Source: Mustelus asterias (taxonomy: Eukaryota). Taken from it: DNA of 64,000 bases. A program made the position numbers and the translations under genes. Of this stretch, positions 8,554 to 52,878 are shown piece by piece. The stretch is from contig NW_027590140.1 of NCBI RefSeq assembly GCF_964213995.1, positions 1-64,000 of the forward strand, written 5' to 3'. The notes beneath the pieces are model-generated. The model was not told where the DNA came from. It saw only the letters and a list, made by a program, of their open reading frames with translations, and made no database searches. Position 1 is the first letter of the stretch. Each line of letters starts with the position of its first letter.

Positions 8554-9464
8554 TCAAGACATAAATATTTTTACAAATACGTTCAGTGGATATTTCATCC
8601 CATTCTTTAACTCATCTCTGATTTTATTCTGGGTCACAGCATAAATAAAAGGGTTGATACAAGAACTCAAGAGCTGGAGCATATATCCAGTCTCAGAGAG
8701 AATGAACGTGGAATTACTGAAATTCGAACCCGAGAAATAAGTAACTTTAGCAATTCGCACAAAGAGGATGTTTATAAAAAATAACAAATAAGATAGGATG
8801 AAACTGCCCGAGATGGCGAAGAGTAAAACAATGGACTTTCTCCTCTTCTCCACCTCTGGGTCACTCTGATTCTCTCCATTGCTCTGGGTCCGGAGTCTCC
8901 TGCGGGCTCTATTAGCCGCTAGAATGTGTTTGACAGTCAGAGCATTGAGCAATGCAATCAGAATGAAAGGAAGAAAAGGGGTTAAAGTGGAACGGATCCA
9001 GTCATACGCTGCCCAAGCTGGTGATGTATAAATTATTCCTCTTATCATGCAGAACCAGGGTACGTTATTAATGATGTACCGAGGTTCAAATTGTAAATAT
9101 AGGAAGATATTTTTTACACAGGCCAGAATGGACACGATTCCTATTACACGCATCGCTCTCTTTTCTGTGCAATATTTTAATTTCAGCTTCTGACAGGAAA
9201 TGGACACAAATCGATCAAAGGTGAAAGCGACCGTTAACCAGGCAGAACTGTCCATTGCTGTGATATTCAGGACAGCACGAATACCGCAAACTGGTGTGAT
9301 AGACAGGAAACTAGAGGGGAAATAGATGCCAGCAATTCGGTTTAATATTACAGCCGTGAGCATCACCAGGAGATCCGTTACCGCCATGGAAACCAGGTAA
9401 TAAGTGACACATCCAGAGAGACCGCATCTTCTTCGAGACAGGATCACAATCACTGCCAAGTTGG
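8554..9464 (-). CDS. GPR139/GPR142-like class A GPCR, paralogue A, exon 2; join complement(8554-9464,10998-11067), 326 aa
   Basis: Open 7TM frame with YYLVSMAVTDLL (TM2), AFTFDRFVSISC (DRY-like), LPFILI (TM5), KSIVLLF (TM6) and INPFIY (NPxxY). Acceptor tctccctttcttacag|CC; the phase-1 join to exon 1 reads ...GVP-A-N-L-A-V. Confidence 0.9.
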
Positions 9465-10997: not shown

Positions 10998-11067
10998 CTG
11001 GAACCCCTATAGCCCCAAGGACAGGATAGTAAATGGCAAACACCAGACCTTTCGGTATTGCGTGCAT
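10998..11067 (-). CDS. GPR139-like paralogue A, exon 1 (MHAIPKGLVFAIYYPVLGAIGVP)
   Basis: 70-nt exon ATG..CCAG|gtatg, homologous to exon 1 of paralogues B and C. Confidence 0.88.
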
Positions 11068-11116: not shown

Positions 11117-11176
11117 ATTATACTCCATAACAGGCTCTAGAGATTTAATTAGTCGTCTTAACTTTTGTCTTAATTG
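11117..11176 (-). promoter_or_regulatory. Putative core promoter of paralogue A (CAATTA, TAATTA, TCTCTAGAG, TATAAT)
   Basis: Motif order and spacing are shared with the two paralogues; the TATA-like box is 55 nt upstream of the ATG. Confidence 0.55.
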
Positions 11177-20549: not shown

Positions 20550-23165
20550 ACTGGTAGGATAACGGTTGCGCATTGACCAAGGCGGGAATCACAGCTGTAG
20601 AGAAGGTGTATGCTGTGGAGGGATTGTCTACAGAGTCTCTGTGGGTGGAAGTTCGGAGTGGGAAGGGGTCGATCACTTTGCTGGGAGTTTTCTACAGGCC
20701 GCCCAATAGTAACAGGGAGGTGGAGTAGCAGATCGGGAAACAGCTCCTGGAGAGATGCAGTAATAGCAGAGTTGTTGTGATGGGAGACTTTGATTTCCCA
20801 AACATAGATTGGAATATCCCTCGGGCAAGGGGATTGGATGGGGAGGAGTTCGTTAGGTGTGTTCAGGAGGGTTTCCTAACACAGCATGTGGACAAGCCTA
20901 CAAGAGGAGAGGCTGTACTTGATCTGATACTGACCAATGAACCTGGACAGGTGTCAGATCGCTCATTGGGAGAGCATCTTGGGGATAGCGATCATAACTC
21001 TATCATTTTTATGCTTGCATTGGAAAAGGAGAGGATCAGGTTAGCTCAGAAAACGTTTATATGGAGTAAGGGGAAATATGAAGACATAAGGCCGCAAATT
21101 AGAGGAGTAAATTGGAAGGAGGTATTCCCGGGGAAATGTACTGAAGAGAGGTGGCAGTTTTTCAAGGAATGTCCGTCTAGAGTTCTGCAGGACAATGTTC
21201 CGAGCAGACAGCGAGGTGTTGGTAGGTTAAAGGAACCGTGTGGCACGAAAGCTGTGCGGGACCTAGTCGCAAAGAAAAGGAAAGCGTACAAAAGGTGCAG
21301 AGAGCTTGGCGAAGATAGGGATCTAAATGAGTATACGGCTTGTAGGAAGGGACTAAAGAAGGAAATTAGGAGAGCCAGAAGGCGTCACGAGAATGCCTTG
21401 GCAGGTAGGATTAAGGAGAACCCTAAGGCGTTCTATAAATATGTGAAAGGTAAAAGGATGAGACGTGAAGGAATAGGGCCGATAAAAGTTGAAGGTTGGA
21501 AAGTCTATACGGAACCAGTGGAAATGACAGAGGTGCTTAATGAGTATTTTGCCTCGGTTTTCACAGAGGAAAAGGACTTGGGTGGATGTACTGCGGGCTT
21601 GCGGTGGACTGAAAAGATTGAGTATGTGGACTTTAAGGAAGAGGTTGTGCTGGAATCTTTGAATGGCATCAAGATAGATAAGTCGCCGGGTCCGGATGGG
21701 TTGTACCCCAGGTTACTGTGGGAGGCGAGGGAAGAGATCGCAGAGACTCTGGTGATGATCTTTGCGTCATCGATGGAGATGGGAGAGGTGCCGGAGGATT
21801 GGTGGATTGCGCATGTGGTTCCTATTTTCAAGAAGGGGAATAGGGATAGCCCAGGAAATTACCGGCCAATGAGTCTAAACTCAGTGGTTGGTAAACTGAT
21901 GGAGAAGATGCTGAGGGACGGGATTTATGAGCATTTAGAGAGGCTTAGTATGCTCAAGAATACTCAGCATGGCTTTGTCAAAGGCAGATCTTGCCTTAGG
22001 AGCCTGGTGGAGTTCTTCAAAAACGTGACTAAACACATTAACGAAGGGAAAGCGGTAGATGTGGTTTATATGGATTTTAGCAAGGCGTTCAATAAGGTCC
22101 CCCATGCAAGGCTTCTAGCAAAAGTGAGAGGGCATGGAATCCAAGGTGCTGCTGCCCTGTGAAGCCAGAACTGGCTTGCCCAAAGGAGCCAGAGAGTGTG
22201 TATGGGTCTTTTTCTAAATGGAGGTCGGTCACCAGTGGTGTGCCCCAGGGATCTGTTCTGGGACCCTTGCTGTTTGTCATTTTCATAAATGACTTGGATG
22301 AGGAAGTGGAGGGATGGGTTGGTCAGTTTGCCGACGGCACGAAGTTTGGTGGGGTTGTGGATCGTCTGGAGGGATGTCAGAAGTTACAGAGGGACATAGA
22401 TAGGATGCAAGACTGGGCGGAGAAGTGGCAGATGGACTTCAACCCAGATCAATGCGTAGTGGTCTGTAGAGGATCAGAATGACCTTGGGGTCCGGGTCCA
22501 TTGGACTCTAAAATCGGCCCCGCAGGTGGAGGAGGTGGTGAAGAAGAAGGCGTATGGTGTGCTGGCCTTTATCAATCGAGCTTAGGAGTCCGGGGATAAT
22601 AATGCAGCTATATAAGACCCTCGTCAGACCCCACTTAGAGTACTGTGCTCAGTTCTGGTCGCCTCATTACCGGAAAGATGTGGAAATGATTGAAAGGGTG
22701 CAGAGGAGATTTACAAGGATGTTGCCTTGATTGAGTTGCATGCCTTATGAGGATAGGCTGAGGGAGCTCGTTCTTTTCTCCTTTGAGAGACGTAGGAGGA
22801 AAGGAGACCTAATAGAGGTGTATAAGATGTTGAGAGGCATAGATCGGGTGGACTCTCAGAGGCTTTTTCCCAAGAGTGGAAATGGCTGCTACGAGAGGAC
22901 ATAGGTTTAAGGTGCTGGGGGGTACGTACAGGGGAAATGTTAGGGGGACGTTTTTCACACAGAGGGTAATGGGCGAGGGAATCGGCTGCCATCAGTGGTG
23001 GTGGAGGCAAACTCAATCGGGACTTTTAAGACACTCCTGGATGAGTACATGGGACTTAATAGGATGGAGGGTTATAGGTAGGCCGAGAAGGTAGGGATAT
23101 GTTCGGCACAATGTGTGGGGCCGAAGGGCCTGTTTGTGCTGTAGCTTTTCTATGTTTCTCTGTCT
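20550..23165 (+). mobile_element. 5'-truncated CR1 LINE (APE endonuclease C-terminus plus RT), frameshifted
   Basis: GDFDFPNIDW, LGDSDHNSI, PGPDG, YRPMSL, QHGF, YMDFSKAF, GVPQGSVLGP, FADG (ORFs 20777-22162, 22159-22482); 3' tail ttctatgtttct. Confidence 0.95.
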
Positions 23166-25773: not shown

Positions 25774-25834
25774 CAATTAATGTGCAACATCAAACCATGT
25801 AATTATGTCCGCTGAGACTGAGATCTGGTATAAA
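25774..25834 (+). promoter_or_regulatory. Putative core promoter of paralogue B
   Basis: CAATTA at 25774, TAATTA at 25800, TATAAA at 25829 (57 nt before the ATG). The string tataaatgtgacaat is identical in paralogue C. Confidence 0.55.
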
Positions 25835-25885: not shown

Positions 25886-25955
25886 ATGCATGGAATACCA
25901 AAAGGTCTGCTGTTTGCAATTTACTATCCTATCCTTGCAGCTGTTGGGTTTCCAG
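25886..25955 (+). CDS. GPR139-like paralogue B, exon 1 (MHGIPKGLLFAIYYPILAAVGFP)
   Basis: 70-nt exon ending CCAG|gtacag. Confidence 0.88.
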
Positions 25956-27295: not shown

Positions 27296-28203
27296 CTAAT
27301 TTGGCAGTGACTGTGATCCTACCTCGAGGAAGATGTGGCCTTTCCAAATGTATCACTTATTACCTGGTATTCATGGCTGTAACGGATCTCCTCGTAATCA
27401 TCACTGCTGTGATAGTTAACCGGATTATAGGTATTTATTTCCAATTCAGTTTCCTGTCCATCACTCCGGTCTGTCGTGTTAGTCTTATGCTGATTTATGG
27501 GGTCAGGGATTCATCTGTCTGGGTCACCGTCGCGTTCACCTTTGATCGATTTGTTGCGATTTGTTGTCAGAAACTGAAAACCAAATTTTGCACAGAAAAA
27601 ACAGCAGCTGTGGTTATTGGAACTGCCTGCGCTCTGAACAGTGTAAGAAATATCCCGCTGTACTTTATCTATGAGCCTGCATTTTTCATCGATGAGACAC
27701 CATGGTACTGCAACTTAAAAACAACATATTACACAACAGCTGCTTGGGTCTCATTTGACTGGATTTTCGTCATCTTAAATCCTTGTCTTCCATTCATTTT
27801 GATTTTACTGTTTAATGCACTGACCGTAAGGCACATCGTTATAGCCAACAGAGCCCGGAGCAGACTCTTGGATCAAAGCAATGCAGAGAATCAGAGGGAC
27901 CCTGAAGTGGAGAAGAGGCGAAAGTCGATTGTTTTACTCTTCTGTGTCTCTGGAAGTTTCATCTTGTTATATTCGTTAGTAATTACAACTTTTCTCTGTG
28001 TCCAAATTGCGAACGTTAGCTATTACTCGGGCACCAATTACAATCAATCGAATTTTATTCTGGACGAAGGTGGGTATATGCTTCAGCTGTTGAGTTCCTG
28101 CATTAACCCATTCATTTACGCAGGCACCCAGAGTAAAGTAAGGGAGGAGTTAAAGATTTGGCTGACATACCCATTCTGTCTGATATTTAAACGATTGAAA
28201 TAA
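27296..28203 (+). CDS. GPR139-like GPCR paralogue B, exon 2; join(25886-25955,27296-28203), 325 aa
   Basis: Acceptor tttttcctgtcacag|CT. Intact frame with YYLVFMAVTDLL, AFTFDRFVAICC and INPFIY; AATAAA about 25 nt after the stop. Confidence 0.9.
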
Positions 28204-37459: not shown

Positions 37460-40400
37460 ATATATTTAACTCGCTGTAGTGATAGCGAGTTGAGGAACAG
37501 GGAGCGAGTGCAGTTAAACATGTGGTTGCAGGGATGGTGTAGGAGGGAAGGTTTCAGATACGTGGATAATTGGAACACATTCTGGGGAAGGTGGGACCTG
37601 TACAAACAGGACGGGGTGCACCTGAACGAGAGGGGCACCAATATCCTCGGAGGGAAATTTGATAAGGCTCTTCAGGGGGGTTTAAACTAATTTGTCAGGG
37701 TAGTGGGAAAAGGAGTTGTAATCCAGAAGTCAGTGTTGAGGGTGGCGAGGTATTGGGGAAGGTATCAAGGTCAAGGGTGGGTACCGGTAGCAGGAAGGTG
37801 GGTTGAAGTGTGTCTACTTCAATGCAAGGAGCATCCGGAACAAGGTAGATGAACTTGCGGCGTGGATTGGTACTTGGGACTACGATGTTGTGGCCATTGC
37901 GGAGACGTGGGTAGCACAAGGACAGGAATGGTTGTTGAATGTTCTGGGGTATATATGTTTCAGTAAGTGTAGGGAAGCTGGCAAAAGAGGTGGAGGAGTA
38001 GCATTGTTAATCAAGGATAGTTTAACGGCTGCGGAAAGGCACTTCGAGGGGGATCTGCACACTGAGGTAATATGGGCTGAGCTTAGAAATAGGAAAGGAG
38101 GGGTCACGTTGTTAGGAGTTTACTATAGGTCCCCAAATAGTAATAGAGATGTGGAGGAAGAAATTGCTAAGCAGATTATGGATATGTGTGGGGGTCACAG
38201 GGTAGTTGTCATGGGGGACTTTAACTTTTCAAATATTGATTGGAACCTTTGTAGGTCAAATAGTTCGGATGGGGCAGTTTTCGTGCAGTGTGTGCAGGAG
38301 GGTTTCCTGACACAATATGTGGATAGGCCGACAAGAGGTGAGGCCACATTGGATTTGGTACTGGGAACTGAACCGGGCCAAGTGTTAGATTTGGTTGTGG
38401 GAGAACACTTTGGAGATAGTGACCACAATTCGGTGTCTGTTGTTATTGCAATGGAGAGGGATAGGGCCGCACGGCAGGGCAAGGTTTACAATTGGGGGAG
38501 AGGTAATTATGATGCGATGAGGCAAGAATTAGGGGGCATAAGATGGGAACAGAAACTGTCAGGGAAAGGCACTAATGAAAAGTGGAACTTTTTCAAGGAA
38601 CAAATACTGGGTGTCCTTGATGTATGTCCCTGTCAGGCAGGGAGGAAATGGCTGTGTGAGGGAACCATGGTTCACGAAAGAGGTGGAATATCTTGTGAAA
38701 AGGAAGAGGGAAGCTTATGTAGGGATGAGGAAACAAGGTTCAGATGGCTCGATTGAGGGTTACAAGTTAGCAAGGAATGAGCTGAAAAAGGGGCATAGGA
38801 GAGCTAGGAGTGGACATGAGAAGTCCTTGGCGGGTCGGATCAAGGAAAACCCCAAGGCTTTTTACTCTTATGTGAGGAATAAAAGAATGACCAGGGTGAG
38901 GTTAGGGCCGGTCAAGGACAGTAGTGGGAACTTGTGTATGGAGTCAGTAGAGATAGGCGAGGTGATGAATGAATACTTTTCTTCAGTGTTCACCAAGGAC
39001 AGGGGCCATGTTTTTGAGGAAGAGAAGGTGTTACAGGCTAATAGGCTGGAGGAAATAGATGTTCGGAGGGAGGATGTCCTGGCAGTTCTGAATAAACTGA
39101 ATGTCGATAATGCCCTGGGCCTGATGAAATATATCCTAGGATTCGTTGGGAGGCAAGTGATGAGATTGCATAGCCTTTGGCTTTGATCTTTGGGTCCTCG
39201 CTGTCCACGGGGATAGCGCCCGAGGACTGGAGAGTGGCGAATGTTGTTCCTCTGTTTAAGAAAGGGAATAGAAATGACCCTGGTAATTATAGACCGTTTA
39301 GTCTTACTTCGGTGGTTGGTAAATTGATGGAAAAGGTCCTTAGGGATGGGAATACGACCATTTAGAAAGATGCGGATTAATCCGGGATAGTCTGCACGGA
39401 TTCGTGAAGGGCAAGTCGTGCCTCACAAATTTGATTGAATTCTTTGAGGAGGTAACTAAGTGTGTTGATGAAGGTAGGGCGGTTCATGTCATATACATGG
39501 ATTTTAGTAAGGCGTTTGATAAGGTCCCCCATGGTCGGCTTATGATGAAAGTGAGGAGGTGTGGGATAGAGGGAAAGTTGGCCGATTGGATAGGTAACTG
39601 GCTATCTGATCGAAGACAGAGGGTGGTGGTGGATGGAAAATCTTCGGACTGGAGGCAGGTTGCTAGTGGAGTGCCACAGGGATCAGTGCTTGGTCCTCTG
39701 CTCTTTGTGATTTTTATTAATGACTTAGAGGAGGGGGCTGAAGGGTGGATCAGTAAATTTGCTGATGACACCAAGATAGGGGGAGTAGTGGATGAGGTAG
39801 AGGGCTGTTGTCGGCGGCAAAGAGACATAGATAGGATGCAAAGCTGGGCTGAAAAATGGCAAATGGAGTTCAACCCTGATAAATGTGAGGTGATTCATTT
39901 TGGTAGGACTAATTTAAATGTGGCTTGCAGGGTCAAAGGTAGGGTTCTGAAGACTGTGGAGGAACAGAGAGATCTTGGTGTCCATATCCACAGATCTCTA
40001 AAGGTTGCCACTCAAGCGGATAGAGCTGTGAAGAAGGCCTATAGTGTGTTAGCTTTTATTAACAGGGGGTTGGAGTTTAAGAGCCATGGGGCTCTGCTGC
40101 AAATGTACAGGACCTTGGTGAGACCACATTTGGAATATTGTGTGCAGTTCTGGTCACCTCACTATAAGAAGGATGTGGAAGCGCTGGAAAGAGTGCAGAG
40201 GAGTTTTACCAGGATGCGGCCTGGTTTGGAGGGTAGGTGTTATGAGGAAAGGTTGCGGGAGCTAGGGCTGTTCTCTCTGGAGCGGAGGAGGCTGAGGGGA
40301 GACTTAATAGAGGTTTATAAAATGATGAAGGGGATAGATAGAGTGAATGTTCAAAGACAATTTCCTCGGTTGGATGGAACTATTACAAGTGGGCATAACT

Positions 40401-40656
40401 ATAGGGTTCGTGGTGGGAAATAGGAAGGATATCAGAGGTAGGTTCTTTACGCAGAGAGTGGTTGGGGTGTGGAATGGACTGCCTGCAGTGATAGTGGAGT
40501 CAGACACTTTAGGAACATTTACGCGGTTATTGGATAGGCACATGGAGCACACAAGGATGATAGGGAGTGGGATAGCTTGATCTTGGTTTCTGATAAAGCT
40601 CGGCACAACATCGTGGGCCGAAGGGCCTATTCTGTGCTGTACTGTTCTATGTTCTA
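37460..40656 (+). mobile_element. Near-complete CR1 LINE: ORF1 esterase C-terminus plus frameshifted ORF2 (APE-RT)
   Basis: ORF1 WCRREGFRY..DLYKQDGVHLN (SGNH DxxH). ORF2 YFNARSI..AIAETW..GDFN..SDHN, FADDTKIGG, RPHLEYCVQFWSP. (TTCTATG)n tail; 12-bp duplication tgttctataact at 37448-37459 and 40657-40668. Confidence 0.95.
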
Positions 40657-42089: not shown

Positions 42090-43559
42090 AAATACCAAAT
42101 CACGAACATAAATGACAAAAACGGTGGACCCAACACCGATCCCTGAGACAAACCGCTGGTCACAGGCCTCCGGGTTTGAAAAACAACTTTTGGCACCACC
42201 CTTTGTGTTCTGTCATCAAGCCAATTTTGTACCTATTTGTCATCTCACCCTGGATTCCGTGAGAATGAACCTTATGCAACAACCTATCATGTGATACCTT
42301 GTCGAAGCCCTTGCAAAAGCCCATGTAGTCAATATCAACTGCATTGCTCATGTACCTTCTTGGTTACCCCTTCAAAAAACTGCATTTAATTTGTGAGAAA
42401 TGATGTTCCACTCACAATGCCATGCTGACTCTCCCTAATCAGTCCTTGCCTCTCTAAATGCCTATCGATCCTGTCTCTCAGAATGCCTTCTAAAAACTTA
42501 CCCACTACAGATATGAGGCTCATCTCCCTGTAGTTTCCAGGCTTTTCCGTGCAGCCCATTTTAATCAAATACACAACATTTGCCACCCTCCAGTCTTCAG
42601 GCACCTCACTGTGGCTGGCCATGATTCAAATATCTCTGCCAGGGGAAAGTCAATTTCCTCTTTCGCCTCTCCCCCCCCCCCCCCCCGCCTCCCACAACGT
42701 CCTGTTATACACTTCATCAGGTCCCTGGGATGTATCTAGCTTGATGCACTTTAAGACATCCAGCACCTCCGTCTCTGTTACACGCCTCAAGACATCACTA
42801 TTTATTTCCCTAAGTTCCCGAACATTTTTTGCCTTTTACAAAACTAAATACCGATAAGAAATATTCATTTATCATTTCACCCTTCTCTTGTGGATCCGCA
42901 CATAAATTGCCTTGTTGATTCTTAATAGGTCCTACTCTCTCCCCTAGTTACTCTTTTACCCTTCATACATTTGTAGAAACTCTTTTGATTCTGCTTTGCC
43001 TTATCTGCCAAAACATTCTCGTGTCCTCTTTTTGCTCTCCTGAATCCTCTTATCTCTGCTTCTACACCCTCTATATTCTTCAAGGATGCATTTGATCCCA
43101 GCTGCCGGTGTATGACATTTATCTCATTCTTCTTCTTGACCAGGGCCTCAATATCCCCAGTTATCCAGCGTTCCCTCGTTCTACCAGCCTTGCCCATCAC
43201 GGTAAGAGGAATGTGCTTGTCCTGATACCTGGTTAACAGACTGTTGAAAGCCTCCCACTTACCAGACGCCTTTGCCTGCCAGCAAATTCCCCAATTAACT
43301 TTTGAAAGTTCCTGTCTGATAACATTAATATTGGCCTTGCCCCAATTTAGAATTTTAACTTTTGGGCCAGACCTATTGTTCTCCATAGCTATCTTAAAAC
43401 TAATGGAATTATGGTCACTCGTCCCAAAGTGATCCCTCACTCTCCTTGTGTCACCTGCTCTTCCTTATTTCCCAAGAGGAGATCAAGTTTCTCCCGCTCT
43501 CTCGTCGGAACATTGACATTCTGAAAGAGAAGTTCCTCCTGAATAAACTCGAAATTAAG

Positions 43560-50043: not shown

Positions 50044-50074
50044 TGTTGCAATAATCTCTTTGTTCTTCTAAATT

Positions 50075-50135
50075 TAATTAATGCGAAAGATCAAGCAACC
50101 TAATTATCTCCCTGGAGCATGACATCGCGTATAAA
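50075..50135 (+). promoter_or_regulatory. Putative core promoter of paralogue C
   Basis: TAATTA at 50075, TAATTA at 50101, TCCCTGGAG at 50109-50117, TATAAA at 50130 (57 nt before the ATG). Confidence 0.6.
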
Positions 50136-50186
50136 TGTGACAATTTTTCAATGTAGTGCAGACCACGATCAGCGCTTCTGTAAGAA

Positions 50187-50256
50187 ATGCATGGAATACC
50201 AGAAGGTCTGGTGTTTGCCATTTATTATCCAGTCATAGCAGCTATCGGAGTTTCAG
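50187..50256 (+). CDS. GPR139-like paralogue C, exon 1 (MHGIPEGLVFAIYYPVIAAIGVS)
   Basis: 70-nt exon ending TCAG|gtaaaa. Confidence 0.88.
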
Positions 50257-51979: not shown

Positions 51980-52878
51980 CTAACACAGCAGTGATTTTGG
52001 TCCTCGCAAGAAAAAGTTGTGGTCTCTCCAGATGTATCACGTATTACCTTGTGTCCATAGCGGTGGTGGATCTCCTGCTCATAATATCTGCTGTGATATT
52101 AAACCGGATTGCGGGAATCTTTTTTCCATTGAGCTTCTTGTCTGTAACACCAGTTTGCAGCGTCCGTACAGTCCTACATTCTACCGCCATGGACAACTCT
52201 GTCTGGTTAACCGTCGCTTTCACGTTTGATAGATTTGTGGCTATTTGTTGCCAGAAGCTCAAAGTTAAATATTGTAATGAAAATGTGGCCACGTGGGTCA
52301 TTGGAATCGTGTCCACACTCGCCTGTGTAAAAAATGTCTTTGTGTACTTTATTTATGAACCCCTGTACATAATTAACGATGTACCCTGGTTCTGCAACGT
52401 AAAGTTAATATTTTACACATCCCCTTTCTGGGCTGCTTATGACTTGATGCGTTGTATTGTCACTCCTATCCTTCCATTCATTTTGATTTTGCTGCTGAAT
52501 GCTCTTACTGTAAGACACATTCTAGCGGCCAATAGAGCCCGCAGGAGACTCCGGGCCCAGAACAATGGAAAGAATCAGAGTGACCCAGAGGTGGAGAAGC
52601 GGAAAAAGTCCATTGTTTTACTCTTCACTATTTCGGGAAATTTCATCCTGTTATACTTGTTATTTTTTATAACTATCATCTATGTCCGAATTGCGAAAGG
52701 TACGTATTTCTCAGGTTCTGGTTTCAGTAATACATTTAATCTTGAGGAAACTGGATATATGCTTCTGTTTTTGTGTTCCTGCATTAACCCATTGATTTAT
52801 GCTGGGACTCAGAGTAAAATCAGAGCCGAGTTAAAGAATTTGGTGAAATATCCACTCAAACAATGTGTTAATTTTTAA
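51980..52878 (+). CDS. GPR139-like GPCR paralogue C, exon 2; join(50187-50256,51980-52878), 322 aa
   Basis: Acceptor ttccctctattacag|CT. Intact frame with YYLVSIAVVDLL, AFTFDRFVAICC and INPLIY. Confidence 0.9.

What the first reader, a model, noticed from the sequence alone, without database searches (positions are those of the whole stretch)
50075..50145. Olfactory-receptor-like promoter grammar conserved upstream of all three GPCR genes
Seen: (C/T)AATTA, then 25-26 nt later TAATTA, then 29 nt later TATAA, then 55-57 nt to the ATG in all three genes (A 11176/11151/11122 minus strand; B 25774/25800/25829; C 50075/50101/50130), while intervening bases diverge. The proximal TAATTA is followed by TCCCTGGAG in C, TCTCTAGAG in A and a weaker TCCGCTGAG in B. 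Known: adjacent homeodomain (Lhx2) and O/E (Ebf) sites characterise vertebrate odorant receptor promoters and enhancers. Inference: these receptors may be expressed in olfactory sensory neurons, which would make them an unrecognised chemoreceptor family in sharks. Shared ancestry alone could explain part of the similarity.
Basis: partly seen in the sequence, partly recalled or inferred. Interest (0 to 1): 0.7.

Follow-up and report, generated by a model that had tools for sequence, protein, structure and literature searches.

The report
Olfactory-style promoter on shark orphan receptors
Three intact shark receptor genes share a conserved, rigidly spaced control element resembling the switch of smell-receptor genes; they belong to a huge, little-studied receptor family that is likely, but not shown, to be an overlooked set of smell or other chemical sensors.

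Summary
The genes are intact two-exon class A GPCRs of the elasmobranch 'probable GPR139' expansion, not odorant receptors; 1,675 genomic matches to one family motif against 3 strong OR hits. The core is homeodomain site + 2 bp + EBF-type palindrome + 10-13 bp + TATA. On a gene tree, the EBF half-sites and TATA change 3-4 times less than neighbouring promoter bases; the distal TAATTA does not differ significantly. EBF-TATA spacing holds in 60 of 68 scored promoters, including distant subfamilies (background 5%); the homeodomain site holds in 28 of 68. New here: this genome's V2R promoters, its known olfactory family, are also enriched for EBF-like sites (16 of 27 vs 4.1 shuffled; crystallin control 0 of 8). 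Spacing differs from the mouse Lhx2/Ebf composite (2 vs 1 bp). Expression is untested. Best reading: olfactory-neuron chemoreceptor repertoire, about 0.5. The scan noted this promoter before in this and other shark genomes.

The parts
50075..50080 (+). Gene C distal TAATTA (homeodomain-like; not significantly conserved family-wide)
50101..50106 (+). Gene C proximal homeodomain site TAATTA
50109..50118 (+). Gene C O/E (EBF/COE)-like palindrome TCCC-TG-GAGC, 2 bp after the homeodomain site and 11 bp before TATA
50130..50135 (+). Gene C TATA box
50160..50162 (+). Conserved AGA 30 nt after the TATA start; predicted transcription start region (inferred)
   Evidence: 2, 3 and 2 changes at -27 to -25
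50057..50064 (+). Degenerate copy of the family's upstream forkhead-like word (label recalled)
50187..50256 (+). Gene C exon 1 coding part (N-terminus and most of TM1), GT donor
51980..52878 (+). Gene C exon 2; spliced ORF 322 aa, 7tm_1
25774..25779 (+). Gene B distal CAATTA
25800..25817 (+). Gene B homeodomain site + 2 bp + weaker O/E-like site (25808-25817)
25829..25834 (+). Gene B TATA box
25886..25955 (+). Gene B exon 1 coding part
27296..28203 (+). Gene B exon 2; spliced ORF 325 aa, 7tm_1
11171..11176 (-). Gene A distal CAATTA
11134..11151 (-). Gene A homeodomain site + 2 bp + O/E-like site (TCTC variant, 11143-11134)
11117..11122 (-). Gene A TATA-like box
10998..11067 (-). Gene A exon 1 coding part
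8554..9464 (-). Gene A exon 2; spliced ORF 326 aa, 7tm_1

Best explanation
The element is a conserved, rigidly spaced proximal promoter of a very large shark GPR139-like receptor family, which likely binds an EBF/COE dimer next to a homeodomain factor (Lhx2/Emx2 type) just upstream of TATA and would thereby switch these receptors on in olfactory sensory neurons, where they likely act as a diversified chemoreceptor repertoire. Shown: the motifs, their spacing, their excess conservation, the family's size and clustering, the variable predicted binding pocket, and EBF-like enrichment in the same genome's V2R promoters. Inferred: the identity of the bound factors, the transcription start, the tissue, and the sensory role.
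For: Purifying selection has an EBF-shaped footprint: left half-site 2,1,3,2 changes, centre 11,9, right half-site 4,4,2, against a promoter background of 9.2 and fourfold-degenerate sites of 10.4. It holds with genes A-C masked (2.4 vs 8.5, p=3e-5). An EBF-like site lies 10-13 bp before a TATA-like box in 31 of 33 near, 9 of 11 divergent and 20 of 24 distant-subfamily promoters, against 70 of 1,410 background zones. The 17-mer fits the published Greek Island Lhx2/Ebf pattern (PMC11643329 methods passage) with at most 1 mismatch in 25 of 37 promoters; about 1% of window positions do so. V2R promoters of this genome: EBF-like score >=6.7 in 16 of 27 vs 4.1+-1.7 in dinucleotide shuffles (0 of 100 reach it), and 9 of 18 among promoters not seen before the weights were set vs 3.0+-1.5; flanking windows 2 of 28, 4 of 28, 1 of 22; crystallin promoters 0 of 8. 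V2Rs are the main shark olfactory family (PMC11979771 passages). The family looks like a chemoreceptor repertoire: 1,675 motif matches in clusters; predicted pocket entropy 2.28 bits vs 1.60 for other extracellular-half positions (p=6e-4) and 0.64 for the cytoplasmic half, 65 paralogues.
Against: No expression evidence of any kind. The homeodomain site is not universal (19 of 33, 5 of 11, 4 of 24), and 8 of 24 distant promoters carry an RFX-like word instead. Column conservation puts the EBF site 2 bp from the homeodomain site, whereas the mouse composite has 1 bp; in mouse that composite marks enhancers and is depleted from OR promoters. V2R promoters share only the EBF-like site and TATA, not the rigid layout (1 of 22 at 10-13 bp, none with the adjacent homeodomain site, none with the forkhead-like word). 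My EBF score is ad hoc and paralogues are not independent samples. EBF factors also act in B cells, fat and many neurons (recalled). The catshark sensory transcriptome paper does not mention the family (0 occurrences of GPR139), and even some V2Rs are expressed outside the nose.
Confidence: 0.5

Rival explanations
1. The promoter is a real EBF/homeodomain module, but it drives the receptors in non-olfactory sensory or neuroendocrine cells (taste buds, solitary chemosensory cells, gill or gut cells, lateral-line or ampullary cells) or in brain neurons.
For: Forkhead-like words occur in 27 of 71 family promoters and 0 of 27 V2R promoters; RFX-like words occur in 8 of 24 distant ones, suggesting inputs not shared with V2Rs. 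Shark OR, ORA and V2R-like genes are reported in ampullae, gills and other tissues (PMC11979771 passages). The nearest solved relatives, GPR139 and TRHR, are neuronal or endocrine receptors (tissue recalled).
Against: The EBF + TATA combination is shared with the genome's V2R promoters, and repertoires of over a thousand clustered GPCRs are otherwise typical of olfaction (established knowledge).
Confidence: 0.25
2. The family is an immune or other non-neural receptor repertoire whose EBF site is read by EBF1 in lymphocytes.
For: EBF1 is the B-cell factor (recalled); large variable receptor families are also typical of immunity; a conserved OR-like gene is reported as immune-cell specific (PMC13113109, search listing only).
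Against: The adjacent conserved homeodomain site and the match to the Lhx2/Ebf pattern fit olfactory neurons better; no immune-type motif was looked for or noticed.
Confidence: 0.1
3. The similarity is inherited sequence of duplicated promoters; only the TATA box matters and the olfactory likeness is a coincidence of short words.
For: Whole promoters remain alignable in the near clade (mean pairwise identity 0.53 vs 0.42 for intron starts; B-C 69%). Other blocks are conserved too, and the distal TAATTA is not special. The mouse pattern is degenerate.
Against: O/E half-sites are as constrained as TATA and as second codon positions (2.6 vs 2.8 vs 2.9 changes), with an unconstrained centre. The site keeps its distance to TATA in subfamilies where the rest looks unlike the near clade by eye.
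Confidence: 0.15

Closest known systems
Mouse Greek Island Lhx2/Ebf composite motif (PMC5608512 passages and supplements 2, 7; PMC11643329 passages; J element PMC7804114 passages)
   Same: Homeodomain site immediately 5' of an O/E site in the same orientation; the shark 17-mer fits the published degenerate pattern with at most 1 mismatch in 25 of 37 promoters.
   Different: The spacer is 2 bp here and 1 bp in mouse. Here it is a TATA-proximal promoter element in single copy; in mouse it marks intergenic enhancers and is depleted from OR promoters.
Mammalian OR and V1R proximal promoters with O/E-like and homeodomain sites (PMC3247230 passages)
   Same: O/E-like and homeodomain sites close to the start of clustered receptor genes.
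   Different: Rigid O/E-TATA distance of 10-13 bp; a short 5' leader with a coding first exon; the genes are not ORs or V1Rs.
V2R (OlfC) promoters of the same genome
   Same: TATA box close to the start codon (19 of 27) and an enriched EBF-like palindrome upstream.
   Different: The site lies mostly 46-103 bp before TATA at variable distance, with no fixed adjacent homeodomain site.
GPR139/GPR142 and the fish-coelacanth orphans named GPR210A/B (PMC6504862 passage)
   Same: GPR139 is the best PDB hit (E 2.4e-12); database names are 'probable GPR139'; low-copy relatives exist in teleosts, coelacanth, amphibians and turtles.
   Different: TRH receptor scores almost equally (3.2e-12); the family is multiplied over a thousandfold. 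A conserved low-copy relative in this genome is only 30% identical to a family member and has no TATA or O/E directly before its ATG. Equating those relatives with GPR210 is my inference.

Membership tests
Odorant receptors (OR) | Match to Pfam 7tm_4 | tested here: not met
   Only 7tm_1 is matched, even at E<=10; the genome's 7tm_4 search gives 3 strong hits elsewhere.
Odorant receptors (OR) | Intronless coding region (recalled feature) | tested here: not met
   All three genes have a GT-AG intron at the end of TM1.
Olfactory-type (HD + O/E) promoter | O/E (EBF) palindrome near the start, conserved above background | tested here: met
Olfactory-type (HD + O/E) promoter | Homeodomain site near the O/E site | tested here: inconclusive
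   Met in the window's clade (p=0.009), but present in only 28 of 68 promoters overall and 4 of 24 distant ones.
Olfactory-type (HD + O/E) promoter | Binding by Lhx2/Emx2 and EBF; activity in olfactory neurons | not testable with these tools
   Needs EMSA, ChIP, a reporter or expression data.
Greek Island composite motif | Fit to the published 17-position pattern | tested here: met
   At most 1 mismatch in 25 of 37; the pattern is degenerate (about 1% of positions).
Greek Island composite motif | 1-bp spacer between Lhx2 and Ebf sites | tested here: not met
   Conserved columns define the palindrome 2 bp after TAATTR (also L160).
Greek Island composite motif | Location in an intergenic enhancer | tested here: not met
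   It lies 11 bp before TATA and about 70-85 bp before the ATG.
GPR139 orthologue | Single-copy, highly conserved gene | tested here: not met
   1,675 motif matches; only a weak profile match to human GPR139 (E 2.4e-12). No tree with true GPR139/142 was built.
Chemoreceptor repertoire (works like) | Large clustered family with variable ligand pocket | tested here: met
   pocket positions numbered approximately from motifs.
Chemoreceptor repertoire (works like) | Sparse expression in sensory neurons and response to external chemicals | not testable with these tools
   Needs tissue RNA, in situ hybridisation and ligand assays.

The most novel reading that the evidence does not exclude
Sharks and rays have a fifth, previously unrecognised olfactory receptor family, derived from the GPR139/peptide-receptor branch and numbering over a thousand genes. 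It independently adopted the homeodomain-EBF code of olfactory neurons and hard-wired it into each proximal promoter, so the 'tiny' shark olfactory repertoire is in fact one of the largest known.
Probability: 0.45. Interest if true: 0.9.

Novelty: new variant of a known kind. Interest (0 to 1): 0.62.

Why it matters
Sharks are described as having very few olfactory receptor genes (catshark: 2 canonical ORs, 32 V2Rs; PMC11979771 passages) despite large olfactory organs. A family of over a thousand clustered, pocket-variable GPCRs with an EBF-based promoter code, partly shared with the genome's V2Rs, would resolve that mismatch. It would also show a separate recruitment of the Lhx2/EBF logic by a new receptor lineage. 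The claim is directly testable with existing catshark tissue RNA-seq.

Tried and rejected
Expression: no RNA holder listed; the four listed runs cover intron and flanks evenly and show no exon joint, so they read as DNA. This is no evidence either way. A first genome pattern had one letter too many and found nothing; the corrected one is. A single-sequence PDB search was uninformative; the profile search was used instead. The distal TAATTA was rejected as a core part. A rigid HD-O/E composite in V2R promoters was not found. Literature: no paper on this family's promoter or expression turned up in searches (open library only; subscription papers are not covered). The supplement of PMC11979771, which holds catshark tissue expression, could not be read and may bear on the claim. 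The supplements of PMC11589584 hold no 'receptor 139' (5 files held, one picture-only PDF not searched). Rows dropped: 11 of 60 near loci (10 with no exon 1 within 6.5 kb, 1 with a partial match), 1 of 20 divergent loci and 10 of 40 distant loci gave no usable exon 1. The low-copy relative L182 was set aside; near-duplicates were removed (52 to 37 to 34; 19 to 13; 29 to 24; V2R 47 to 27-28). Two promoters (L162, L170) duplicate near-set members. Crystallin exon 1 was found in few loci (8 after de-duplication, one doubtful, two nearly alike), so that control is small. No structure or complex prediction was run; it would not bear on the question.

Full report
Observation. Each precedes a 70-nt coding first exon that splices GT-AG to a long second exon, giving intact ORFs of 326, 325 and 322 aa.

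What the genes are. Pfam finds only 7tm_1 as a significant match, never 7tm_4. The nearest 120 of 1,749 homologues are shark and ray proteins where named, mostly 'probable G-protein coupled receptor 139'. A profile reaches human GPR139 and TRH receptor about equally weakly (E 2.4e-12 and 3.2e-12). Low-copy relatives exist in teleosts, coelacanth, amphibians and turtles, probably the orphans called GPR210 in PMC6504862 (passage; the equation is my inference). In this genome a 26-base degenerate pattern for the family's TM3-end motif matches 1,675 times against 0 for the control. That count includes broken copies and possibly uncollapsed duplicates, and misses variants such as gene A. The genome has 3 strong OR hits and 47 V2R-type first exons. 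Among 65 paralogues, predicted pocket positions are more variable (2.28 bits) than other extracellular-half positions (1.60, p=6e-4) or cytoplasmic-half positions (0.64) (numbering approximate).

Is the promoter more than shared ancestry? I fetched 60 paralogues chosen by exon-2 similarity, not by promoter, found exon 1 by a peptide profile in 49, and kept 37 genes including A-C after removing near-duplicates. Parsimony changes per column on the exon-2 tree were: O/E half-sites 2.6, TATA 2.8, proximal homeodomain site 5.5, distal site 6.8, other promoter columns 9.2, fourfold-degenerate sites 10.4, second codon positions 2.9. Masking A-C leaves the result intact. The profile across the O/E word is four conserved columns, two free, three conserved, the footprint expected of an EBF dimer site. 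The distal TAATTA is borderline (p=0.05) and not part of the core. A strict genome-wide pattern for homeodomain-O/E-TATA gives 63 matches and 0 for the control; 61 lie outside C1 and C2 and read as this family's promoters, and two on C1 and C2 were not followed.

Deeper clades. In 19 of 20 more divergent loci and 30 of 40 loci picked with a distant query, exon 1 was found (one of the 30 is the low-copy relative, set aside). After de-duplication, an EBF-like site (score >=5.5) lies 10-13 bp before a TATA-like box in 31 of 33, 9 of 11 and 20 of 24 promoters, against 70 of 1,410 background zones. The homeodomain site at 2 bp holds in 19, 5 and 4 of these. In 8 of 24 distant promoters an RFX-like word is present, by eye in the homeodomain site's place, and a forkhead-like word lies further upstream in 27 of 71 (both labels recalled). 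So O/E-TATA is the family-wide constant, and the homeodomain partner is clade-dependent.

Comparison with the mouse code. The published composite pattern (PMC11643329, methods passage) fits the shark 17-mer with at most one mismatch in 25 of 37 promoters, against about 1% of window positions. The usual mismatch is at the spacer. Read by conserved columns, the shark spacer is 2 bp; mouse has 1 bp (Sfaktiria probe in PMC5608512 supplement 7), and a 2-bp insertion impairs binding of the composite-specific fusion protein (passage). In mouse the composite marks enhancers, not promoters. It works like the olfactory code but is not the same element.

In-genome controls. For V2Rs, the established shark olfactory family (PMC11979771 passages), I located first exons on C3. 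In the proximal 190 nt, an EBF-like palindrome scoring >=6.7 occurs in 16 of 27, against 4.1+-1.7 in dinucleotide shuffles and 16% of random windows. More distant or intronic windows give 2 of 28, 4 of 28 and 1 of 22. The score weights were set by hand after I had seen 14 of these promoters; in the 18 not seen, 9 pass against 3.0+-1.5. Crystallin promoters give 0 of 8. V2R sites sit mostly 46-103 bp before TATA and lack a fixed homeodomain neighbour. A few of the 47 hits may be V2R-like or related class C genes; I did not sort them. This is the best indirect support for olfactory use: two unrelated receptor families of one shark both put an EBF-like site and a TATA box close to a coding first exon.

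What is missing. There is no expression evidence; see Tried and rejected for the runs. The catshark sensory paper (passages read; supplement unreadable) took a candidate-family approach and does not mention GPR139. EBF also acts in B cells and many neurons (recalled), and shark chemoreceptor genes are often expressed outside the nose.

Verdict. The promoter module is real and under selection, on a huge orphan GPCR family that is not OR. Most likely an EBF dimer, helped by a homeodomain factor, activates a TATA promoter in olfactory neurons (0.5); other sensory or neural cells 0.25, immune cells 0.1, mere inheritance 0.15. Earlier notes of this scan report the same module in this and other shark genomes; they are leads, not support. 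The tree-aware test, the distant-subfamily survey and the V2R control were done here.

Noticed in passing
L186, L187, L193, L197, L200, L204, L206, L213, L221 (G000 C8, C16, C73, C75, C85): A distant subfamily keeps O/E-TATA but carries a GTTGCAAC-type word (RFX or C/EBP-like, recalled) where the homeodomain site lies in other clades, hinting at a different cell type.
   Followed up: partly
G000 C3:3.8-10.4 Mb, V2R first exons (L109-L155): Shark V2R genes have a TATA box about 50 nt before the ATG and an enriched EBF-like palindrome further upstream, several with a 4-bp rather than 2-bp centre.
   Followed up: partly
window 50057-50064; 11194-11187 (minus strand); many family loci: A forkhead-like word upstream of the O/E site is shared across all clades sampled (27 of 71) and absent from V2R promoters; an E-box lies just upstream of it in the near clade.
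   Followed up: partly
L182 (G000 C25:56.72 Mb) and L177 (G000 C5:28.70 Mb): Two conserved low-copy relatives of the family; L182 is 83% identical to a catshark protein of the lineage shared with teleosts and coelacanth and lacks the promoter module directly before its ATG.
   Followed up: partly
G000 C16:100.8-102.3 Mb: Genes with two beta-gamma crystallin domains in one open frame are interleaved with family receptor genes.
   Followed up: no
window 27373-28200 and L002-L008: Gene B has seven copies at 97-100% protein identity on C71 and small contigs, and gene C's promoter recurs identically many times: recent segmental duplication or uncollapsed haplotypes.
   Followed up: no
window 20780-22162, 38178-40423, 42922-43386: LINE-type endonuclease/reverse transcriptase fragments lie between the receptor genes (class recalled from the translation).
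   Followed up: no
L172, L175: Two family members keep the homeodomain site but appear to have lost the O/E site and most of the spacer before a weak TATA.
   Followed up: no
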